DNA of 64,000 bases from Candidatus Caldifonticola tengchongensis (GCA_031432545.1 JAVKGX010000003.1:57861-121860); one strand, 5' to 3'; shown: positions 14,560 through 54,378, counted from the stretch's first letter. Notes: generated by a model from the letters alone, not told the origin. Numbers and translations are program-made.

Positions 14560-14798
14560 GAACTCAAGCGAGGAAGGGAAGCAGTAGGCGCCAGCAGCTC
14601 TCGCAGAGAACCGGAGCCGGTGCGATCCGGTAGAGCGAAGCGCTGAACCTCGTCCCCGAGCTTGCCGGGCGAAAGGTCGAGTAGTCCGGCACGCGGCCAG
14701 CGTAAACGCCCAACGAGGTCCAAGTTCTCCTGGGGCTTGGAACTAAGGTGGTACCGCGGGAGCCAACCCGTCCTTAGGTTGGCTCCCGTTGTTTTCCG
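14560..14798 (+). promoter_or_regulatory. T-box riboswitch leader with intrinsic terminator, upstream of ilvB
   Basis: Canonical T-box sequence aaCTAAGGTGGTACCGCGG at 14745-14759 overlapping the 5' arm of a perfect 11-bp terminator stem (gggagccaacc / ggttggctccc, 14758-14788) followed by gttgttttcc. AGAGA and GNUGA-like elements and an AGUA box lie upstream (14600-14700). About 230 nt from leader start to terminator. Confidence 0.8.
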
Positions 14799-40343: not shown

Positions 40344-40419
<76 letters not shown>

Positions 40420-45823: not shown

Positions 45824-47044
45824 ATGCCGAGCCGCACGGCTCCCTTCCGAGGGCATCGGATCCCCGACGGCCTGCGCGACTGGCTCCCCGACGAGTGGGG
45901 GCGGGTGCGGGCACTGGAGGCGCGGCTTCGTGCGCTGTTCGGCGCATGGGGATACTGCGAGGTGGCTACGCCGGTGCTGGAATGTCTGGACAGCGTCGCG
46001 CGCGGGATCGGCCAGACGCCGCAAGACTGGTTCGTCGTCGTGGACCGCACCGGTGAACTTTTGGTGCTGCGCCCGGAGATGACCGTGCCGATGGCGCGCC
46101 TGGCCGCGGGCCACCTGACGGGGCGGACGGTGCGGCTGTGCTACTTCGCCGAGGTGTTTCGAGGCCGACGGGCGCGGGGCGCGGCCCGGGAGTTCCGTCA
46201 GGCAGGGGTGGAGCGGATCGGGGATCGGGGGTGCGAGGCCGACGGGGAGGTGATCGCGCTGGCCGCGCACGCGCTGCGGGAGGCCGGCGTGCGTGACTTC
46301 CGCATCGGCGTCGGGCACGTGGGGTTGTTGCGCGCGTTGTTGGAGGCGGCCGGTCTGGACGCCGGGGACCGGCACACGGCGCAGGTGCTGCTGTACCGCC
46401 GCGACTTCGTGACGCTGCGCGGGCTGCTGGCGGGCAGCCCCGCCCGGGTTCGCGATGTCATCTTTTCGCTGCCCGAGTTGCGGGGCGGGGACGCCTCTGC
46501 GGCCGTGCGTGACGTCGGGGTCGGGGCCGAGGCTGTGGCGGAAGTCGATGCGGTGCTGGCGACCCTGCCGGCCTTCGGAGTGGGGGATGCGGTGGAGATG
46601 GACCTGGGCTTGATCCGCGACTTCGACTACTACACGGGCGTCGTGTTCGAGGGATACACCCGGGGGCTTGGGTTGCCGCTGCTGGGCGGGGGCCGCTACG
46701 ACGAACTGCTGGGGCGCTTTGGGGCCGACCGCCCGGCCATGGGGTTCGCGATCGAACTCGAGCGCGTTCTGCCGGCTGCTGACGCGTTGGCCGAGCGGCG
46801 ACCTGCGCTGCAGATCGTCTACGAGCCGCAGGCGCGCGCCGCAGCGCTGGACGTGGCGCGGCGTGCGCGCGATGCCGGGTGGGCGGTGACGGTGGATCCG
46901 CACCCGGCGGAGCCGCTGGGAGGCGCGCCGACCCTGGCGTTCACGACGGCGGGCGTCCGTCTTTCCGATCCGGACGGTACCCAACGCGAGGTGCCGGGGG
47001 CCCACTGGCAGCAGATCCGCGGCCTGTTGGACGGTGCCCGGTGA
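45824..47044 (+). CDS. hisZ: ATP phosphoribosyltransferase regulatory subunit HisZ (HisRS paralog)
   Basis: 406 aa class-II aaRS-like core with no anticodon-binding domain. Followed by a short-form hisG. Confidence 0.85.
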   Translation: MPSRTAPFRGHRIPDGLRDWLPDEWGRVRALEARLRALFGAWGYCEVATPVLECLDSVARGIGQTPQDWFVVVDRTGELLVLRPEMTVPMARLAAGHLTGRTVRLCYFAEVFRGRRARGAAREFRQAGVERIGDRGCEADGEVIALAAHALREAGVRDFRIGVGHVGLLRALLEAAGLDAGDRHTAQVLLYRRDFVTLRGLLAGSPARVRDVIFSLPELRGGDASAAVRDVGVGAEAVAEVDAVLATLPAFGVGDAVEMDLGLIRDFDYYTGVVFEGYTRGLGLPLLGGGRYDELLGRFGADRPAMGFAIELERVLPAADALAERRPALQIVYEPQARAAALDVARRARDAGWAVTVDPHPAEPLGGAPTLAFTTAGVRLSDPDGTQREVPGAHWQQIRGLLDGAR

Positions 47045-47709
47045 AGAAGCTGACGGTGGCGGTCCCCGCCGGGCGCCTGCGCGCAGACGCGCTGCGCGCC
47101 CTCCGATCCGCAGGCTACGCGGGTGCGGCCGATCCCGACGACCGCAGCCTGTTGCTGCCGTGGGGTGAGTTGACGGTGCTGGTGGCGAAACCGGTCGATC
47201 TGCTGACGTACGTGGAACGCGGTGCGGCCGACTGCGGGATTGTCGGCAAGGACGTGCTCCTCGAGCAGTCGCACCACGTCTACGAGTTGCTCGACCTGGG
47301 CTTCGGGCGGTGCCGGGGCGTGGTGGCCGTCCCGCGCGGGCGAACCGCGCTCTGGGACGACGCGCGCCGGCCGCTGCGCATCGCCACGAAGTACCCGCGG
47401 GTCGCCGAGGGCTTCTTCCGGGAGCGCGGGCGCCCGGTCGAGATCGTCGAGATGTACGGGTCGGTCGAACTCGCCCCGCGCGTGGGGCTCAGCGACGGCA
47501 TCCTCGACGTGGTGATGACCGGCGCTACGTTGCGTGCCAACGACCTGGTGGAGGTGGCGCAGGCGTTCGTCTCCACCGCGCGCCTGGTCGTGAACCCCGT
47601 GAGCCTGCGCGCCCGGTCCGACGCAGTGCAGACCCTGTTGGACCGTTTGAGGGGTCGCAGCGGCGGTGCGGCCATCGCCTCGGCCTCGCAGGGGGAGGGA
47701 TCGGCGTGA
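47041..47709 (+). CDS. hisG: ATP phosphoribosyltransferase, short form
   Basis: GTG 47041 overlaps the hisZ stop (GTGA). 222 aa, (V)KKLTVAVPAGRL..., no C-terminal regulatory domain, consistent with HisZ dependence. Confidence 0.88.
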   Translation: MKKLTVAVPAGRLRADALRALRSAGYAGAADPDDRSLLLPWGELTVLVAKPVDLLTYVERGAADCGIVGKDVLLEQSHHVYELLDLGFGRCRGVVAVPRGRTALWDDARRPLRIATKYPRVAEGFFRERGRPVEIVEMYGSVELAPRVGLSDGILDVVMTGATLRANDLVEVAQAFVSTARLVVNPVSLRARSDAVQTLLDRLRGRSGGAAIASASQGEGSA

Positions 47710-49031
47710 GGGTCGTGCGCCTCCGTGACGTCCCGCCGGGCGACCTGCGCCGGTTGCTGGCGCGTTCCCGGGATCGGATCTTCGACCCCCAGACGCAGGA
47801 CGCAGTTCGCCGGCTGCTCGACGACGTGCGCGCGCGGGGCGACCAGGCCGTTGTGGACGCCACGGCCCGATTCGATGGGGTGCGGCTTCGGCCCGATGAA
47901 CTCGCCGTCTCCCGGCAGCAGATCCGTTCCGCGCACCGGCGGGTGGACGATGCGGTGCGGGCTGCTCTGGAGGCGGCGATCGAACGCAGCCGGCGGTTCT
48001 CCGAGTGGCTGCGGCCGCCGGAGACGGTCGTCGAGGAGATCGAGCCCGGCATCACCGTCGGCGTGCGCCACACGTCGATCGCATCGGTCGGCGCGTACGT
48101 CCCCTCCGGCAAGGGGAGGTTCCCCTCGACGGTTGCGACGATGCTCACGCCGGCCGTGGTGGCCGGCGTTCCGGACATCGCCCTCGTCGTCCCGCCAGGG
48201 CCAGACGGTTCGGTGGATCCCGCGGTGCTCCTCGCGGCGGACTTGCTGGGGATCGAGCGCGTGTTCTGCGCCAACGGCCCCGCGGGCATTGCCGCGCTCA
48301 GCGTGGGGACGGCGACCTTCCCGCGGGTGGAGGCGGTCGTGGGTCCGGGCAGTCCTCACGTCGTAGCGATGCAACTGACCATCTCGTCGTTGGGCGTGCG
48401 CGCGCTGGGACTGATGGGACCCACGGAATCCGTGGTGCTGGCCGACGGCCGGGCTCCGGTGGACCTCGTGGCGCTCGACTTGGTGAACGAAGCCGAGCAC
48501 GGCAGTGACTCGGCCTGTTGGCTCGTCACCCCCAGCGCCGCGCTGGCCGAGGAGGCGGTCGCACGTGTGAGGGACCTGCTGGACCGAATCCCCGAGCCGC
48601 GGCGTACCTACGCGCGCGATGCGCTGTCCGATCTGGGCGGGGCCCTCGTGGTCGATAGCTGGGAGGAAGCGGTGTCGTTCGTGGACGCCTACGCCCCCGA
48701 ACACCTCCTCATCCACGCCGCCGAGGCGTGGGAGACGGCGTGGCGCATCCGCCACGCGGGGGAGATTCTCATCGGACCACACACGCCGTTTTCGGCGGCG
48801 AACTACGCGATCGGCATACCGGCGGCGCTGCCCACGGGCGGGGCGGCACGCCGCGAGGGTGGCATTACGGTCCTCAGCTTCCTCAAGACCACGTCTGTGG
48901 GACATCTGGATCCGCGTGGCCTGGAGAAGGTGCGAGGCGTCGTGCAGGCGCTGGGTGCGTATGAGGGTTTCCCCGCGCACGTGATGGCGGTGACCGGTCG
49001 ACCCGTTGGGCCCTCGGGGCCCGGAGGGTAG
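47706..49031 (+). CDS. hisD: histidinol dehydrogenase
   Basis: GTG 47706 overlaps the hisG stop. HisD motifs (...GPSGPG at the C-terminus); 441 aa. Confidence 0.9.
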   Translation: MRVVRLRDVPPGDLRRLLARSRDRIFDPQTQDAVRRLLDDVRARGDQAVVDATARFDGVRLRPDELAVSRQQIRSAHRRVDDAVRAALEAAIERSRRFSEWLRPPETVVEEIEPGITVGVRHTSIASVGAYVPSGKGRFPSTVATMLTPAVVAGVPDIALVVPPGPDGSVDPAVLLAADLLGIERVFCANGPAGIAALSVGTATFPRVEAVVGPGSPHVVAMQLTISSLGVRALGLMGPTESVVLADGRAPVDLVALDLVNEAEHGSDSACWLVTPSAALAEEAVARVRDLLDRIPEPRRTYARDALSDLGGALVVDSWEEAVSFVDAYAPEHLLIHAAEAWETAWRIRHAGEILIGPHTPFSAANYAIGIPAALPTGGAARREGGITVLSFLKTTSVGHLDPRGLEKVRGVVQALGAYEGFPAHVMAVTGRPVGPSGPGG

Positions 49032-49037
49032 GGGGCC

Positions 49038-50117
49038 ATGCGGGTCCGACCCAGACCGGAGGTCGACGCGCTGCCGGGTTACCGGCTGACGGTGGTGCCC
49101 GCCCCGATCAAGTTGAACCAGAACGAATCCCCCTACGACCTTCCGCCCGAGGTCAAGGAAGAGGTGCTCGGAACGTTGCGGTCGGTGCCCTGGAACCGCT
49201 ATCCGCCGATGCGCGCCGGGCGACTGCGGGAAGCGATCGCCCGGTTACAGGGTGTAAAGCCTGAGAAGGTGATCCTCACCAACGGCTCCAACGAGGCGAT
49301 CCTCGCGCTGATCTCTGCCTTCGCCGCCGGCGGCACGGTCGTTCTGCCGGAGCCGGGCTACTCGATGGCCAGACCCCTGGCCGTGACCGCGGGCGCCCAC
49401 GCGGTGGCCGTTCGGCTGCGCGAAGACCTCAGCATGGATCCGGACGCGCTCCTTTCCGCCGCGGCCGCCTCCTGCGCATCGATGATCTTCTTCGCCTCCC
49501 CGAACAACCCGACGGGCCGCGCCGTACCCCCCGACGACGTGGAGCGCATCGTGGCGGGCTTTCGTGGCCTGGTGGTCGTCGACGAGGCATACTGGGGTTT
49601 CTCGGAAGGGACGGCGCTGCGGCTGCTGCCCGAGCGGGCGAACGTGGCGGTCGTGCGAACGGCGTCCAAGGCGTTCGGTCTTGCCGGCGTGCGAGTCGGC
49701 TGGGTCACCGCGTCGAGGGACGTGATCGCGGCGTTGGACAAAACCCTGCCACCGTACAACCTGGACGTCTTCGCCCAGGCCGCGGCGGAGGCGATGGTGC
49801 GCCGGCCGGATCTGGTGCGCGAGCGCGCATCGCAGGTCGTGCGGGAGCGCGAACGCGTCCTGGAGGCCCTGCGCGCGCTCGGGGTCGAAGCGTTCGCGAG
49901 CGAGGCGAACTTCATCCTGTTCCGCACGCCCGACGCGGCTGCGACGTTCGACGGCCTGGCGCGGCGCGGCGTGCTCGTGCGGGACGTCTCGCACTTCCCC
50001 ATGCTCGACGGCTGCCTGCGTGTGACTGTGGGGACGCCTCCCGACAACGACGCGTTCTTGCAGGCGCTGCGTCAGGCCCTGCCCCGGGTGCGGGCGTCCG
50101 GCGGGAGGTCTGTATGA
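49038..50117 (+). CDS. hisC: histidinol-phosphate aminotransferase
   Basis: 359 aa class-II aminotransferase. PLP lysine region (RTASKAFGLAG). Confidence 0.9.
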   Translation: MRVRPRPEVDALPGYRLTVVPAPIKLNQNESPYDLPPEVKEEVLGTLRSVPWNRYPPMRAGRLREAIARLQGVKPEKVILTNGSNEAILALISAFAAGGTVVLPEPGYSMARPLAVTAGAHAVAVRLREDLSMDPDALLSAAAASCASMIFFASPNNPTGRAVPPDDVERIVAGFRGLVVVDEAYWGFSEGTALRLLPERANVAVVRTASKAFGLAGVRVGWVTASRDVIAALDKTLPPYNLDVFAQAAAEAMVRRPDLVRERASQVVRERERVLEALRALGVEAFASEANFILFRTPDAAATFDGLARRGVLVRDVSHFPMLDGCLRVTVGTPPDNDAFLQALRQALPRVRASGGRSV

Positions 50118-50692
50118 GGTCTGCGACGGTCGCGCGCACCACGGCCGAGACCTCGGTCCGGGTGTCGCTGAACCTGGACGGCACCGGCCGGCACGATGTG
50201 CGGACCGGCATCGGCTTCTTCGACCACGTGCTGGCGCAGCTCGCCTGCCACGGCGGGTTCGACCTGACCGTTGTGGCGGAGGGCGATCTCGAGGTGGACG
50301 CCCACCACACCGTCGAGGACGTGGGCATCACGCTGGGCCAGGCCCTCTCTGAGGCGCTGTCCGACCGCAGCGGGATCGCCCGGTTCGCCAGCCTCCACGC
50401 CGCGATGGACGACGCGCTCGTGCTCTGCGCGGTGGACGCAGGCGGCCGGCCGTTTCTGGCGTGCGACCTGCGGTTCTCTCTGCCGGTGGTCGGTGCGTTT
50501 CCGACGGAACTCGTCGAGGAGTTCCTGCGGGCGTTCGTCACGCACGGACGCCTCACCGCCCACGTCAGACTCGTTGACGGCCACAACAGCCACCACATCG
50601 TCGAGGCCGTCTTCAAGGGGTTGGGTGTGGTTCTGCGCCGCGCGGTCGCGGTCGAGCGGCAGGGCGTGCCGTCCACGAAGGGTGTGCTGTGA
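50114..50692 (+). CDS. hisB: imidazoleglycerol-phosphate dehydratase (monofunctional, no HAD phosphatase domain)
   Basis: 192 aa with IGPD motifs (GIGFFDHVL, HHTVEDVGI, HH..E). ATGA overlap with hisC. Confidence 0.92.
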   Translation: MRSATVARTTAETSVRVSLNLDGTGRHDVRTGIGFFDHVLAQLACHGGFDLTVVAEGDLEVDAHHTVEDVGITLGQALSEALSDRSGIARFASLHAAMDDALVLCAVDAGGRPFLACDLRFSLPVVGAFPTELVEEFLRAFVTHGRLTAHVRLVDGHNSHHIVEAVFKGLGVVLRRAVAVERQGVPSTKGVL

Positions 50693-51315
50693 AGGACACA
50701 GCGTGCCGGGCCGCCGTCGTGGACTACGGCGCCGGCAATCTGCACAGCGTGGAGCGTGCTCTCGCCCGAGTGGGGTTCGCCGCCTGGCGGGCGGTGCGGC
50801 CGGAGGCGTTGGACGGCGCCGACGTGGTCGTGCTGCCGGGGGTGGGTGCGTTCGGTCCGGCGTCGCGTCGCCTGCGCGAGGAGGGGTTCTTCGAGGCGAT
50901 CCGCGCCGCGCTGCGCGAGGGGCGATGGCTCGTCGGGCTGTGCCTGGGGATGCAGATGCTGTTCGAGGAGAGTGAGGAGGACGGAACCCACGAGGGACTC
51001 GGACTGCTGGCGGGCCGGGTCGTGCGGCTGCCCGACGGGATGAAGGTGCCACACATGGGCTGGAACACGCTGACGGTCGCCCGCGGTTGCCCGTTCCCTC
51101 TGGGCGTGAGGTCCGGGGAGTACGTGTACTTCGTGCACTCCTTCTACGCCCGAGCCCGCGAGGAGGACACGGTCGCCTGGACCCCGTACGGGGTCCGCGT
51201 TCCGGCCATCGTCGCGGCAGGGAGGGTGTTGGGTTTTCAGTTCCACCCCGAAAAGAGCGGCGAGGTGGGCCTGCGCCTGCTGCGGGGCCTGGCCGGCGCG
51301 GTCGGGCGGTCATGA
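50689..51315 (+). CDS. hisH: imidazole glycerol phosphate synthase, glutamine amidotransferase subunit
   Basis: 208 aa class-I GATase (GLCLGMQ catalytic Cys; HPE). Confidence 0.9.
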
Positions 51316-52856
51316 CGGTCCTGCCCGCCGTCGACGTCCTCGGCGGGCGGGTCGTCCGGCTGCGCCGGGGCGATTTCGCGCAGGCCACGGTCTACGACTC
51401 TGATCCGGTACGGGCCGCGCGACGGTGGACGGCACGGGGTGCGCGGTGGCTGCACGTCGTGGATCTGGACGGCGCGCGCGTGGGCGCCCCAAGGCAGTTG
51501 GGGGTGCTGGCCGCGATCGCGAAGTCAGTCGGTGTCCCCGTGCAATTCGGGGGCGGCCTCCGGTCGGTCGAATCGGTCGGGCGTGCGCTCGATGCGGGAG
51601 CGGCGAGGGTCGTGATCGGCACGTCGGCGCTGACCGATCCCGCGACGCTGGCGTCGGTGTGCGACCGGTTCGGCGAGCGCGTCGCGGTCGGCCTGGACGT
51701 GGAGGACGGGATCGTCCGCATTCGCGGCTGGACCGAGAGTGCGAGTGTGCACCTCGAAGAGGCGGCCAGGCGTGTGCTGGCGGCGGGCGCGCGCAGGTTG
51801 GTCGTCACCGACGTGGTGGCGGACGGGACGATGGCCGGTCCGAACCTGGAGCTGTACCGACGCCTGGTGCCCCTGGGCGTGCCAGTCGTCGCGTCGGGGG
51901 GCGTCCGCGACGTCGACGACCTGCGGGCCCTGCGGGAGATCGGAGTGGAGGGCGCGATCGTCGGCCGGGCCCTGTACGAGGGGACCATCGACCTCCGGGA
52001 GGCCGTCGACGCGGTGCAAGGCGCACGGTCCGAGGAGTGCGGCTCCGCGCTCGCCCGGCGCATCATCGCCTGCCTGGATGTCTCGCCGGTGGGTGGACGG
52101 GCCCGCGTGGTCAAGGGCGTGCACTTCGTCCGGCTGCGCGACGCAGGCGACCCGGTCGAGCTCGCTTTTCTGTACGAGCGGGAAGGCGCGGACGAAATCG
52201 TGTTCTTGGACATCACCGCTTCATCGTCGGGTCGCCCGACGCTCGAGGACGTCGTCCGGCGGACGGCGTCGGAGGTGTTCATCCCCCTGACCGTGGGCGG
52301 GGGCGTCGGTTCGGTCGAAGACGTGCGGCGCTTGCTGCGGGCCGGGGCGGACAAGGTCGCGGTCAACACCGCGGCGGTGCATCGGCCCGAGCTGGTGTGT
52401 GAGGCGGCGGAGATGTTCGGATCGCAGTGCGTCGTCGTCGCGATCGACGCGCGGCGGCGGCGCGGAGGCTGGGAGGTCTGCACCCACGGGGGGCAGAAGC
52501 CCACGGGCCTGGACGCCGTGGCGTGGGCCCGGAGGGTGGCCGACCTGGGCGCCGGCGAGATCCTGCTGACCAGCATGGACCGCGACGGAACGACCGAGGG
52601 ATTCGACGTCGCGCTGACGCGCGCGGTGACCGACGCCGTCGGCATCCCGGTGATCGCATCGGGTGGGGCGGGAGACGTCTCGCACTTCGCGGAAGTCCTC
52701 GCCGAGGGCGGCGCGGACGCGGCGCTGGCCGCATCGGTCTTCCACTTCGGCCGTCTGCGCATCGGCGATCTGAAGGATGCGTTGCGGGCCGCCGGCGTGC
52801 CGGTGCGCCCGGCGTTGGGCGGTGCCGGCGGCCGGACACAAGCGATGGGACGGTGA
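51312..52856 (+). CDS. hisA-hisF: apparent HisA-HisF fusion: ProFAR isomerase domain followed in frame by the IGP synthase cyclase (HisF) domain
   Basis: ATG 51312 overlaps the hisH stop. The first ~235 aa carry HisA hallmarks ([33 protein letters not shown]). Without any stop codon the frame continues into HisF hallmarks ([21 protein letters not shown], ..VFLDITAS.., [16 protein letters not shown]). The junction at 52015-52050 was checked codon by codon. Confidence 0.8.
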
Positions 52857-52881: not shown

Positions 52882-53550
52882 ATGACCGACCGGGAGGATC
52901 CGCGGGTGGAGATCCCACAGGGTCGTGGCCCCGTCGCTTTCGACGACCTGGGGTTGGTGCCCGTCGTGGTCCAGGACCGCTGCACGGGCGCCGTCCTGAT
53001 GCTCGCCTACGCCGACGCCGCGGCGATCGCCCGAACGGAACGGACGGGTCTCGCCCACTTCTGGAGCCGCTCGCGCGGACGCCCCTGGCAGAAGGGCGAG
53101 ACGAGCGGCCACGTCCTGCGCGTGCACCGGATCTTGACCGACTGCGACGGCGATGCGGTGCTGTACGTCGTCGATCCCTCCGGCCCGGCGTGCCACACGG
53201 GAGAACGATCCTGTTTCCATCGAGACTTGTCCGGCGCGCGGGGCGTTGCGCCCGCGGCGGTGCTGGCGGATCTGGCGGCGCTCGTCGCCTCGCGGCGCGC
53301 ACACCCCGTGGAAGGCTCGTATACCGCCGCGCTGCTGTCCGACGTCCCGTCGCGCCTACACGCGAAGATCTACGAGGAAGCCGCCGAGGTCGTGCGTGCC
53401 GCGCGCGAGGAAGGGCCTCGTCGCCTGGCGGAGGAGGCGGCCGACCTCCTGTACCATCTGCTGGTGCTGCTCGCCCGGCATGACGTGGCGCTGTCCGATG
53501 TGCTGGACGTGCTGGAGCGCCGGCGAGGCGCAACGGGGGCCGAATCGTAG
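52882..53550 (+). CDS. hisIE: bifunctional phosphoribosyl-AMP cyclohydrolase / phosphoribosyl-ATP pyrophosphatase
   Basis: ATG 52882, in frame within track ORF 52777-53550. HisI region (GLVPVVVQD...CDGDAVLY..D....CH.GERSCF) then HisE region (E.....EE..E...A). Confidence 0.85.
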   Translation: MTDREDPRVEIPQGRGPVAFDDLGLVPVVVQDRCTGAVLMLAYADAAAIARTERTGLAHFWSRSRGRPWQKGETSGHVLRVHRILTDCDGDAVLYVVDPSGPACHTGERSCFHRDLSGARGVAPAAVLADLAALVASRRAHPVEGSYTAALLSDVPSRLHAKIYEEAAEVVRAAREEGPRRLAEEAADLLYHLLVLLARHDVALSDVLDVLERRRGATGAES

Positions 53551-53646
53551 GCCCCGCGCTCGACCCTGACCGCTGGCTCGCCACTTCGAACTTCGATACC
53601 ACGCGGACCCGCGGTGGATGCTTGCGCTATGCTGAGACATGCGGGG

Positions 53647-54378
53647 ATGCTGTACGCGATCCTGTCCGACGTGCACGCCAACCTCGACGCGCTCGAGGTC
53701 GTCCTCGCCGATGTGGCCGGCAGCGGGGCGGAGCAGGTGATCTGCCTGGGTGATTTCGTCGGGTACGGACCGGAGCCGAACGAGTGCACCGAGCGGTTGC
53801 GCTCCGTCGCGACCGTGGCGCTGGTGGGCAACCACGACCTGGCTGCCCTCGACCGACTGGACGCCGGCCGCTTCAACCTGTTTGCGCGTCTGGCGGTGGA
53901 GTGGACCAAGCTGCAGCTGGAAGAGTCGATCCGCCACTACCTGGAGTCGCTGCCCGCCACGCGGGAGTACGGAGGGCTGCTGCTCGTGCACGGGAGCCCG
54001 CGGGATCCCGTCGAAGAGTACATCATGGATCTGGAGACTGCAGACGACAATTTTCGGGCCGCGGATTTCGAAATCTGTTTTTTCGGCCACACACACTATC
54101 CCGTGTGGTTCGTGCACGACGGCGAGCGTACCCGCATGCGCGCCCTCGCGCCGGGCGAGCGTGCGGCGCTTCGCGGTGGGCAGCGCCATCTGATCAACGT
54201 CGGCAGCGTCGGCCAGCCCCGGGACGGCGATCCGCGCGCCGCCTACTGCCTGTTCGATTCGGACGCCCGGGTCGTGGAGCTCCGGCGATTGCCCTACCCG
54301 ATCGAGTCGGTGCAGCAGAAGATGCGCGACAGGGAACTGCCGCGGCCGCTGTGGGAGAGGCTGGCGGAGGGGCGGTAG
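53647..54378 (+). CDS. calcineurin-like metallophosphoesterase (YfcE/MJ0936-type)
   Basis: MLYAILSDVHAN...GDFVGYGPEP...GNHD...GHTH motif series. Start chosen at ATG 53647; GTG 53614 and ATG 53629 are in-frame alternatives. Confidence 0.75.
   Translation: MLYAILSDVHANLDALEVVLADVAGSGAEQVICLGDFVGYGPEPNECTERLRSVATVALVGNHDLAALDRLDAGRFNLFARLAVEWTKLQLEESIRHYLESLPATREYGGLLLVHGSPRDPVEEYIMDLETADDNFRAADFEICFFGHTHYPVWFVHDGERTRMRALAPGERAALRGGQRHLINVGSVGQPRDGDPRAAYCLFDSDARVVELRRLPYPIESVQQKMRDRELPRPLWERLAEGR

What the first reader, a model, noticed from the sequence alone, without database searches (positions are those of the whole stretch)
51312..52856. hisA and hisF are a single uninterrupted reading frame (apparent HisA-HisF fusion)
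Translating from ATG 51312 gives a complete HisA (ProFAR isomerase) barrel that runs straight into a complete HisF (cyclase) barrel, with no stop or frame change. The junction codons at 52015-52050 read ...[27 protein letters not shown]..., about 515 aa in total. In Bacillus-type his operons, and in most bacteria I know of, hisA and hisF are separate adjacent genes. They are ancient paralogous (beta-alpha)8 barrels, so a natural covalent fusion would be notable for substrate channelling or evolution studies. Alternatively a stop codon may have been lost by sequencing or assembly error.
Basis: seen in the sequence. Interest (0 to 1): 0.6.

Follow-up and report, generated by a model that had tools for sequence, protein, structure and literature searches.

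The report
Natural HisA–HisF two-barrel gene fusion
[quoted passage not shown] The merger looks real and recent in this lineage, and it is a rare, recurrent event that the histidine literature I could search does not catalogue.

Summary
Window 51312-52856 (+) is one 514-aa ORF made of a complete HisA barrel (res 1-236), a ~10-residue disordered linker and a complete HisF barrel (res 247-500). All catalytic and ammonia-gate residues are present. It sits in an intact hisZ-G-D-C-B-H-[AF]-IE operon.

The three closest relatives found have the same operon but separate hisA and hisF, 1-6 nt apart. Compared with the closest one, the window has the stop TGA changed to TGC, 2 extra nt that restore the frame, and the hisF start GTG changed to GCG. 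No stop lies nearby in any frame and no hisF start remains. A single base error therefore cannot explain the ORF.

Complete HisA-HisF fusions exist elsewhere in public data: 114 of the 120 best 90%-identity protein clusters and 21 of the 150 best 50%-identity representatives. One exact fused protein lies on 22 contigs. Their HisA halves are at most 53% identical to the window, against 72% for the unfused relative, so the window's fusion arose independently.

Fusions are rare: 1 of 46 adjacent hisA-hisF pairs in two scans. Some database cases sit on contigs with broken neighbouring genes. The sources that name them call them only "HisF", and four reviews of his-gene fusions omit hisA.

Verdict: a real, ordinary-mechanism gene fusion of moderate interest.

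The parts
50689..51315 (+). hisH, the glutaminase subunit of imidazole glycerol phosphate (IGP) synthase. It is a separate gene whose stop overlaps the hisAF start (ATGA).
   Evidence: TIGR01855 at 216 bits over the full length. Overlap read in the sequence.
51312..52856 (+). Fused hisA-hisF ORF of 514 codons plus the TGA stop.
51312..52019 (+). HisA (ProFAR isomerase) barrel, residues 1-236. The catalytic Asp residues D8 and D129 are present.
   Evidence: TIGR00007 at 251 bits for this half alone. Matches solved HisA/PriA chains over residues 3-236. AF2 pLDDT above 90. Residue conservation.
52020..52049 (+). Linker, residues 237-246 ([11 protein letters not shown]), predicted disordered. It derives from the former hisA 3' end, the spacer and the hisF start.
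   Evidence: pLDDT below 50 for residues 238-246. Alignment to the relatives' junctions.
52038..52040 (+). TGC (Cys243), at the position of the hisA stop codon TGA in the closest relative L081.
52047..52049 (+). GCG (Ala246), at the position of the hisF start codon in the relatives (GTG in L081, TTG in L082, ATG in L083). No start codon remains here.
52050..52811 (+). HisF (cyclase subunit) barrel, residues 247-500. It carries D256 (=D11) and D379 (=D130), and the ammonia-gate residues R250, E295, K348 and E416.
   Evidence: TIGR00735 at 360.7 bits for this half alone. Matches solved HisF chains, 1ka9_F and 1gpw_A. Foldseek TMt 0.94 to 1gpw_A. Residues.
52812..52853 (+). C-terminal tail, residues 501-514, with no profile match. 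Most of it is predicted disordered.
   Evidence: pLDDT below 50 for residues 504-514. The tail is absent from the aligned homologues.
51997..52016 (+). GGGAGG (51997-52002) followed, after an 11-nt spacer, by the in-frame GTG of Val235 (52014-52016). This could be an internal start giving free HisF. It is hypothetical.
   Evidence: Read in the sequence. Not tested.
45824..51315 (+). Upstream operon genes: hisZ 45824-47044, hisG 47041-47709, hisD 47706-49031, hisC 49038-50117, hisB 50114-50692 and hisH 50689-51315. All give full-length profile matches.
52882..53550 (+). hisIE, which starts 25 nt after the hisAF stop.
   Evidence: NF002747 at 224.6 bits. Start codon.

Best explanation
This is a genuine, lineage-specific in-frame fusion of the adjacent paralogous genes hisA and hisF.

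It arose from tightly spaced, separately translated neighbours. The hisA stop became a sense codon (TGA to TGC). Two extra nucleotides brought hisF into the hisA frame. The hisF start codon then decayed (GTG to GCG). I infer this order of events by comparison with the closest relative.

The product is one 514-aa polypeptide with two independent (beta-alpha)8 barrels joined by a flexible linker of about 10 residues. The N-terminal barrel converts ProFAR to PRFAR (step 4 of the pathway). The C-terminal barrel, together with the separately encoded HisH from the gene immediately upstream, converts PRFAR plus glutamine-derived ammonia to IGP and AICAR (step 5). That the barrels are complete and carry the catalytic residues is shown here. 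That both are active is inferred.

The most likely consequence is obligatory 1:1 co-expression and proximity of two consecutive enzymes. A sealed substrate tunnel is unlikely. I judge the fusion near-neutral or mildly beneficial, tolerated because both joined termini lie on the barrel face away from the active sites. That geometric point rests on my knowledge of (beta-alpha)8 topology and is an inference.
For: - **One ORF with two complete domains.**
- **Functional residues kept.** The catalytic Asp residues and the HisF ammonia-gate residues are conserved in the window, as in nearly all fused homologues.
- **Predicted structure.** The AF2 model has two barrels at pLDDT above 90 and a linker below 50. 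Each barrel superposes on solved HisF or HisA at TMt 0.91-0.94.
- **Relatives are unfused.** L081, L082 and L083 share the operon order. Their operon proteins are 72-82% (L081) and 52-81% (L082, L083) identical to the window's. All three keep a hisA stop and a hisF start, with spacers of 4, 1 and 6 nt.
- **An error would need several changes.** The window differs from L081 at the junction by stop loss, 2 extra nt and loss of the start. No stop occurs in any frame within 150 nt of the junction. The next stops in the other two frames are at 52290 and 52402. A single indel or substitution error therefore cannot restore two genes.
- **Good local sequence quality.** Seven neighbouring his genes are intact over their full profiles. 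Linker GC3 is 0.87.
- **Such fusions exist in nature.** The exact fused protein P0105 lies on 22 contigs, and the 5 places shown come from 5 different samples. A subset of fused proteins shares a conserved linker.
Against: - No reads, transcript or peptide data are available for this window.
- No second assembly of the same organism was found, and the exact protein is not in the collections searched.
- Some database fusions sit on contigs with obviously split or merged neighbouring genes (L087, L086). Artefactual fusions do occur.
- pTM is 0.55, so the relative orientation of the barrels is unknown.
- The HisF N-terminus lies at the HisH docking face in the solved complex (my knowledge of 1GPW). 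A tethered HisA could hinder HisH binding. This was not tested.
Confidence: 0.8

Rival explanations
1. Sequencing or assembly artefact. The real genome has separate hisA and hisF, and base errors removed the stop.
For: Fused ORFs of this kind occur on contigs with evident indel damage. On L087, hisD and hisC are merged while hisB and hisH are split. On L086, hisH and hisC are shortened. No independent copy of the window's sequence was found.
Against: At least two substitutions within 12 nt would be needed, TGC to TGA and GCG to GTG. No single indel works because no stop lies in any frame near the junction. All seven neighbouring his genes give full-length, unbroken profile matches. There is no homopolymer at the junction and the window has no N.
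Confidence: 0.07
2. The fusion is real at the DNA level, but HisF is made mainly as a separate protein. Internal initiation would occur at the in-frame GTG (Val235, 52014-52016), downstream of GGGAGG (51997-52002). The cell would then still run on a free HisF:HisH complex, with a HisA-HisF read-through product as well.
For: The Shine-Dalgarno-like hexamer and an in-frame GTG with an 11-nt spacer are present. The GAGGAG that serves as the ribosome-binding site for hisF in the relatives is also retained as Glu241-Glu242.
Against: The 11-nt spacing is long. These bases also encode conserved-length HisA C-terminal residues, so the motif may be coincidental in a 69% GC genome. The ancestral start codon was allowed to decay, which suggests independent initiation is no longer selected.
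Confidence: 0.1
3. The fusion is an adaptive channelling device. It hands the labile PRFAR directly from the HisA site to the HisF site, and to the HisH allosteric switch, and it was selected for that.
For: HisA and HisF catalyse consecutive steps. A clade of fused proteins with a conserved linker, and a fused protein recurring on 22 contigs, show that such fusions can persist. Some relatives of the window carry accession prefixes that I recall as hot-spring MAG series. That is from memory and unverified.
Against: Fusions are rare and scattered: 1 of 46 adjacent pairs in two scans and 21 of the best 150 among 50%-identity representatives. The closest relatives do without it. Linkers vary from 5 to 51 residues and are unrelated in sequence. 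The joined termini lie opposite the active-site faces (inference from barrel topology). pTM of 0.55 gives no fixed interface.
Confidence: 0.15

Closest known systems
Stand-alone bacterial HisA (TIGR00007) and HisF (TIGR00735), for example T. maritima HisA 1QO2 and HisF:HisH 1GPW
   Same: Each half is a full-length orthologue above the equivalog cutoff. Each has the catalytic Asp pair, the (beta-alpha)8 fold and, in HisF, the ammonia-gate residues. HisH is encoded next door.
   Different: The two halves are covalently joined by about 10 residues. hisA has no stop and hisF has no start.
Other natural HisA-HisF fused ORFs in public data. Examples are P0105 (489 aa, on 22 contigs), MBP7892044.1 (498 aa, Bacillota MAG) and L013 (Acidobacteriota MAG).
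   Same: Same domain order, A then F. Same position between hisH and hisI(E). Short variable linker. Catalytic residues kept.
   Different: No shared origin. Their HisA halves are at most 53% identical to the window (median 42%), against 72% for the unfused relative. Their linkers are unrelated.
Catalogued his-gene fusions: hisIE, hisNB, hisHF/HIS7 (yeast 1JVN) and hisIED/HIS4
   Same: They fuse neighbouring or functionally linked his genes into bifunctional proteins. HIS7 also attaches a domain to the N-terminus of the HisF barrel (PMC1963479; 1jvn appears).
   Different: The partner here is HisA, which is not HisH, HisI or HisE. Reviews list hisD, B, N, I, E, F and H as the genes that underwent fusion and do not list hisA (PMC7284861, PMC10138114).
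The 'gene elongation' model for the origin of hisA and hisF (Fani et al.)
   Same: The mechanism is the one the model describes. Tandem paralogues lose the spacer and the first copy's stop becomes a sense codon (PMC7284861; junction).
   Different: Here it joins two whole, functionally diverged barrels into a two-barrel protein. The model joins two half-barrels into one barrel.
Engineered HisAF chimeras (Sterner and Hocker laboratories; from my own knowledge)
   Same: They combine HisA and HisF sequence in one chain.
   Different: Those are single barrels built from one half of each protein. This is a natural tandem of two complete barrels.

Membership tests
HisA, ProFAR isomerase (TIGR00007) | Full-length profile match above the curated cutoff | tested here: met
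   Residues 3-230 match profile positions 1-230 of 231. The half alone scores 251.1 bits against a cutoff of 228.95.
HisA, ProFAR isomerase (TIGR00007) | Catalytic Asp pair (T. maritima D8 and D127) | tested here: met
   D8 and D129 are present. These columns are D in 111/116 and D or E in 116/116 of the aligned sequences (window plus 115 fused homologues).
HisA, ProFAR isomerase (TIGR00007) | (beta-alpha)8 fold | tested here: met
   AF2 pLDDT above 90. Foldseek TMt 0.91 to S. enterica HisA 5a5w. This is a prediction and no structure has been solved.
HisA, ProFAR isomerase (TIGR00007) | ProFAR to PRFAR isomerase activity | not testable with these tools
   Needs an enzyme assay or complementation.
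HisF, IGP synthase cyclase subunit (TIGR00735) | Full-length profile match above the curated cutoff | tested here: met
   Residues 247-499 match profile positions 2-254 of 254. The half alone scores 360.7 bits against a cutoff of 294.55.
HisF, IGP synthase cyclase subunit (TIGR00735) | Catalytic D11 and D130, and the ammonia gate R5, E46, K99 and E167 (T. maritima numbering) | tested here: met
   D256, D379, R250, E295, K348 and E416 are all present.
HisF, IGP synthase cyclase subunit (TIGR00735) | A partner glutaminase HisH is available | tested here: met
   hisH at 50689-51315 scores 216 bits on TIGR01855 and overlaps the hisAF start. Physical binding was not tested.
PriA, bifunctional HisA/TrpF (TIGR01919) | Profile score above the cutoff | tested here: not met
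   197.6 bits for the HisA half against a cutoff of 306.45.
HIS7-type HisH-HisF fusion | Glutaminase domain on the same chain as HisF | tested here: not met
   HisH is a separate ORF. The fused chain gives no glutaminase-family match among the 10 Pfam families reported at E <= 0.01.
Natural HisA-HisF fusions in public data (unnamed class) | One ORF, complete HisA then complete HisF, short linker, inside a his cluster | tested here: met
   Compare.
Natural HisA-HisF fusions in public data (unnamed class) | Common descent with the other fused genes | tested here: not met
   All 120 closest HisA relatives are unfused, and the best is 72% identical. The HisA halves of fused proteins are at most 53% identical.

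The most novel reading that the evidence does not exclude
Natural HisA-HisF fusions, including this independently arisen one, might form a defined two-barrel assembly with HisH. In such an assembly PRFAR made by the HisA barrel would pass preferentially to the HisF site and switch on HisH in cis. These proteins would then be living examples of 'gene elongation' between whole paralogous barrels with a selectable kinetic benefit. The class has gone unrecognised because annotation pipelines label the proteins simply 'HisF'.
Probability: 0.15. Interest if true: 0.6.

Novelty: new variant of a known kind. Interest (0 to 1): 0.4.

Why it matters
HisA and HisF are the textbook pair for (beta-alpha)8-barrel evolution by duplication and fusion. 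Fusions of his genes have been catalogued for decades without hisA among them (PMC1963479, PMC7284861, PMC10138114).

Here the mutational path is legible against unfused relatives: stop to sense, a 2-nt frame correction and decay of the second start. It recapitulates the proposed gene-elongation mechanism, this time with two whole paralogous barrels.

The fusion also offers a natural construct for two questions. Does tethering consecutive enzymes help with a labile intermediate? Can the HisH docking face of HisF tolerate an N-terminal barrel?

On the practical side, more than 100 such proteins in public databases are named only 'HisF'. Pathway reconstructions may wrongly score hisA as missing in those genomes.

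Tried and rejected
1. **Loci that looked like widespread fusions.** The genome-contig scan seemed at first to show fusions in many phyla. Checking the DNA showed that tblastn had read through a stop codon in 12 of 13 same-frame loci. Only L013 is stop-free. I dropped the idea that fusions are common among species representatives.
2. **Independent copy of the organism.** I looked for a second copy of the window's organism to confirm the junction. The exact protein is not in the 15-billion-protein collection. No relative above about 59% identity turned up in the genome or metagenome scans.
3. **Single-error explanation.** Rejected, because no stop lies in any frame near the junction and no hisF start remains.
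4. **PriA-type bifunctional HisA.** Rejected, because the score is below the cutoff.
5. **Second hisA or hisF copy in the window.** None found.
6. **Literature.** Searches for a described natural HisA-HisF fusion found none. The library lacks most subscription-journal papers, so absence is not proof.
7. **AlphaFold-database fold search.** I wanted to see how UniProt names such fusions, but the library was unavailable.
8. **Taxon of the window.** Not determined, because the source names came back truncated.

Full report
**1. The observation**

The ORF list and the sequence show one open frame through both genes. The likely start is the ATG at 51312. It overlaps the hisH stop as ATGA, the arrangement also seen in a close relative. 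The stop is TGA at 52854-52856. The product has 514 residues.

Scored separately, the N-terminal half matches TIGR00007 (HisA) over residues 3-230, profile positions 1-230 of 231, at 251.1 bits (cutoff 228.95). The C-terminal half matches TIGR00735 (HisF) over profile positions 2-254 of 254, at 360.7 bits (cutoff 294.55). Pfam finds two PF00977 stretches.

Both halves align end to end with solved HisA/PriA and HisF chains. The open frame is the frame in which both profiles match. Linker GC3 (0.87) equals that of the flanking coding sequence (0.89).

**2. Anatomy**

An AlphaFold2 model built on an alignment of 20 fused sequences gives two (beta-alpha)8 barrels at pLDDT above 90. The linker (residues 238-246) and the C-terminal tail (504-514) are below 50. 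pTM is 0.55, so the relative orientation of the barrels is undefined.

Foldseek against the PDB matches each barrel singly. The HisF half reaches TMt 0.94 to 1gpw_A and the HisA half reaches TMt 0.91 to 5a5w. No solved chain covers both barrels (TMq at most 0.47).

The catalytic residues are present: HisA D8 and D129, and HisF D256 (=D11) and D379 (=D130). So are the HisF ammonia-gate residues R250, E295, K348 and E416.

The gene lies in an intact operon, hisZ-hisG-hisD-hisC-hisB-hisH-[hisAF]-hisIE. Every member gives a full-length profile match. There is no other hisA or hisF copy in the window.

**3. Relatives and the origin of the fusion**

I searched with the HisA half alone. All 120 best hits are stand-alone HisA proteins of 233-342 aa, and the best are 72%, 63% and 62% identical.

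Their contigs L081, L082 and L083 have the same gene order. L082 also has the downstream metallophosphoesterase and malic enzyme, and L083 the metallophosphoesterase. Operon proteins are 72-82% identical in L081 and 52-81% in L082 and L083. In all three, hisA ends with a stop and hisF has its own start (GTG, TTG or ATG) after a spacer of 4, 1 or 6 nt.

The junctions aligned at the DNA level:

- L081: ...GAG TGA CTCC GTG TTG GCA AAG CGC ATC...
- window: ...GAG TGC GGC TCC GCG CTC GCC CGG CGC ATC...

Relative to L081 the window has:

- lost the stop (TGA to TGC, 52038-52040);
- gained 2 nt, which puts hisF in the hisA frame;
- lost the hisF start (GTG to GCG, 52047-52049).

No stop occurs in any of the three frames in the 150 nt around the junction. 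The next stops in the other two frames are at 52290 and 52402.

One indel therefore cannot recreate a hisA end. One substitution (TGC to TGA) would leave hisF without a start upstream of its catalytic Asp. At least two precisely placed substitutions would be needed. With the seven intact neighbouring his genes, this makes an artefact unlikely. I put it at about 7%.

**4. How common such fusions are**

*Protein collections.* The full-length query returned 120 best hits, nearly all 470-550 aa at 97% coverage. Of these, 114 have both halves complete. In the library of 50%-identity representatives, 4447 proteins match at E <= 1e-30. Among the best 150, 21 are complete fusions.

*Evidence that some are real.*

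- The exact fused protein P0105 lies on 22 contigs. The five places shown come from five different samples, and the operon around it (hisG-D-C-NB-H-AF-IE) is intact on the four contigs that span it.
- Several clusters have tens of member sequences.
- A subset shares a conserved linker (...AA-x-P-x-S-x-L-T/A-K-R-I-I-P-C-L-D), which indicates a clade that has kept the fusion.

*Caveats.*

- In the genome scan, tblastn read through stop codons. Of the adjacent hisA-hisF pairs found in the genome and metagenome scans, 1 is truly fused (L013), 22 are in the same frame with a stop and 23 are in different frames. That is 1 of 46, in a sample ranked in a way that favours fusions.
- Two fused proteins sit on contigs whose neighbouring his genes are visibly split or merged (L087, L086). 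Some database fusions are therefore probably indel artefacts.

*Independent origin.* The HisA halves of the fused proteins are at most 53% identical to the window (median 42%). That is well below the 72% of the unfused relative. Linkers range from 5 to 51 residues and are unrelated to the window's. The window's fusion is an independent event.

**5. Mechanism**

*Shown.* One ORF, two complete barrels with their catalytic residues, a disordered linker, and a separate adjacent hisH.

*Inferred.* The protein carries out steps 4 and 5 of histidine synthesis. The N-terminal barrel isomerises ProFAR to PRFAR. The C-terminal barrel, with HisH-derived ammonia, cleaves and cyclises PRFAR to IGP and AICAR.

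The C-terminus of a (beta-alpha)8 barrel and the N-terminus of the next both lie at the face opposite the active sites. A 10-residue tether should therefore leave both sites free, and it does not obviously bring them together. In the solved HisF:HisH complex and in yeast HIS7, the HisF N-terminus lies at the HisH face (my own knowledge of 1GPW and 1JVN). An N-terminal appendage is tolerated there, but steric competition between HisA and HisH was not tested.

I favour a near-neutral or mildly beneficial fusion, giving fixed stoichiometry and proximity, over a dedicated channelling device. The reasons are that fusions are rare and scattered, that the closest relatives lack it, and that the linkers are unconstrained.

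An in-frame GTG (Val235, 52014-52016) lies 11 nt after GGGAGG and could also give free HisF. This is untested.

**6. Comparison with what is known**

[quoted passage not shown] They treat hisA and hisF only as products of ancient elongation and duplication (PMC1963479, PMC7284861, PMC8305728, PMC10138114). An archaeal survey reports HisA/F joined to HisIE in four MAGs (PMC11237513).

I found no description of a natural HisA-HisF two-barrel protein. The library is incomplete, so this is not proof of absence.

NCBI and JGI name such proteins only 'HisF', 'cyclase' or 'isomerase'. No NCBIfam model covering both halves appeared among the 25 best of the 32 families that matched.

The junction change matches the textbook description of gene elongation, in which the spacer is lost and the first copy's stop becomes sense (PMC7284861). 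Here it applies to two whole paralogous barrels.

**7. Verdict**

The finding is real and correctly read. It is an independently arisen member of a rare, recurrent and under-described class of his-gene fusion, produced by an ordinary mutational route.

Novelty: new variant of a known kind. Interest: 0.4.

The most novel reading not excluded is a defined HisAF:HisH assembly with a kinetic benefit. I give it about 15% probability and an interest of 0.6 if true.

Noticed in passing
window 53614-54378 (+): A 254-aa protein directly after hisIE has 67%-identical homologues in the same position in L082 and L083. There they carry metallophosphoesterase hits (PF00149, PF12850). The operon has no recognisable histidinol-phosphate phosphatase, since hisB is the 192-aa dehydratase only. 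This conserved neighbour is therefore a candidate non-orthologous HolPase.
   Followed up: partly
L081 1859-2056 and 5789-5992: The closest relative's contig keeps only residues 9-56 of HisZ and 138-205 of HisH, while the other his genes are intact. This is either gene decay or an assembly collapse.
   Followed up: partly
P0254, P0265, P0262 and P0274 (public proteins): Still larger single ORFs exist in public data. HisH-HisA-HisF occurs at 707 and 784 aa, HisH-HisA-HisF-HisIE at 933 aa and HisA-HisF-HisIE at 773 aa. They were not checked for assembly artefacts.
   Followed up: partly
L087 1-3512 and L086 2826-5004: Contigs named 'contig_N' that carry fused hisAF also show merged hisD-hisC, split hisB and hisH, or shortened hisC and hisH. 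Indel-rich assemblies apparently inflate the count of database fusions.
   Followed up: partly
window 14562-14778 (+) and 40344-40416 (+): A T-box leader (112 bits) and a tRNA gene. The T-box is about 31 kb upstream of the his operon and no Rfam element was found immediately upstream of hisZ.
   Followed up: no
window 52074-52100 (residues 255-263 of the fused protein): The HisF half has a 4-residue insertion ([13 protein letters not shown] against the consensus LDVxxGRVV) between the first two strands. L081 shares it ([10 protein letters not shown]), which marks the two as one lineage.
   Followed up: no
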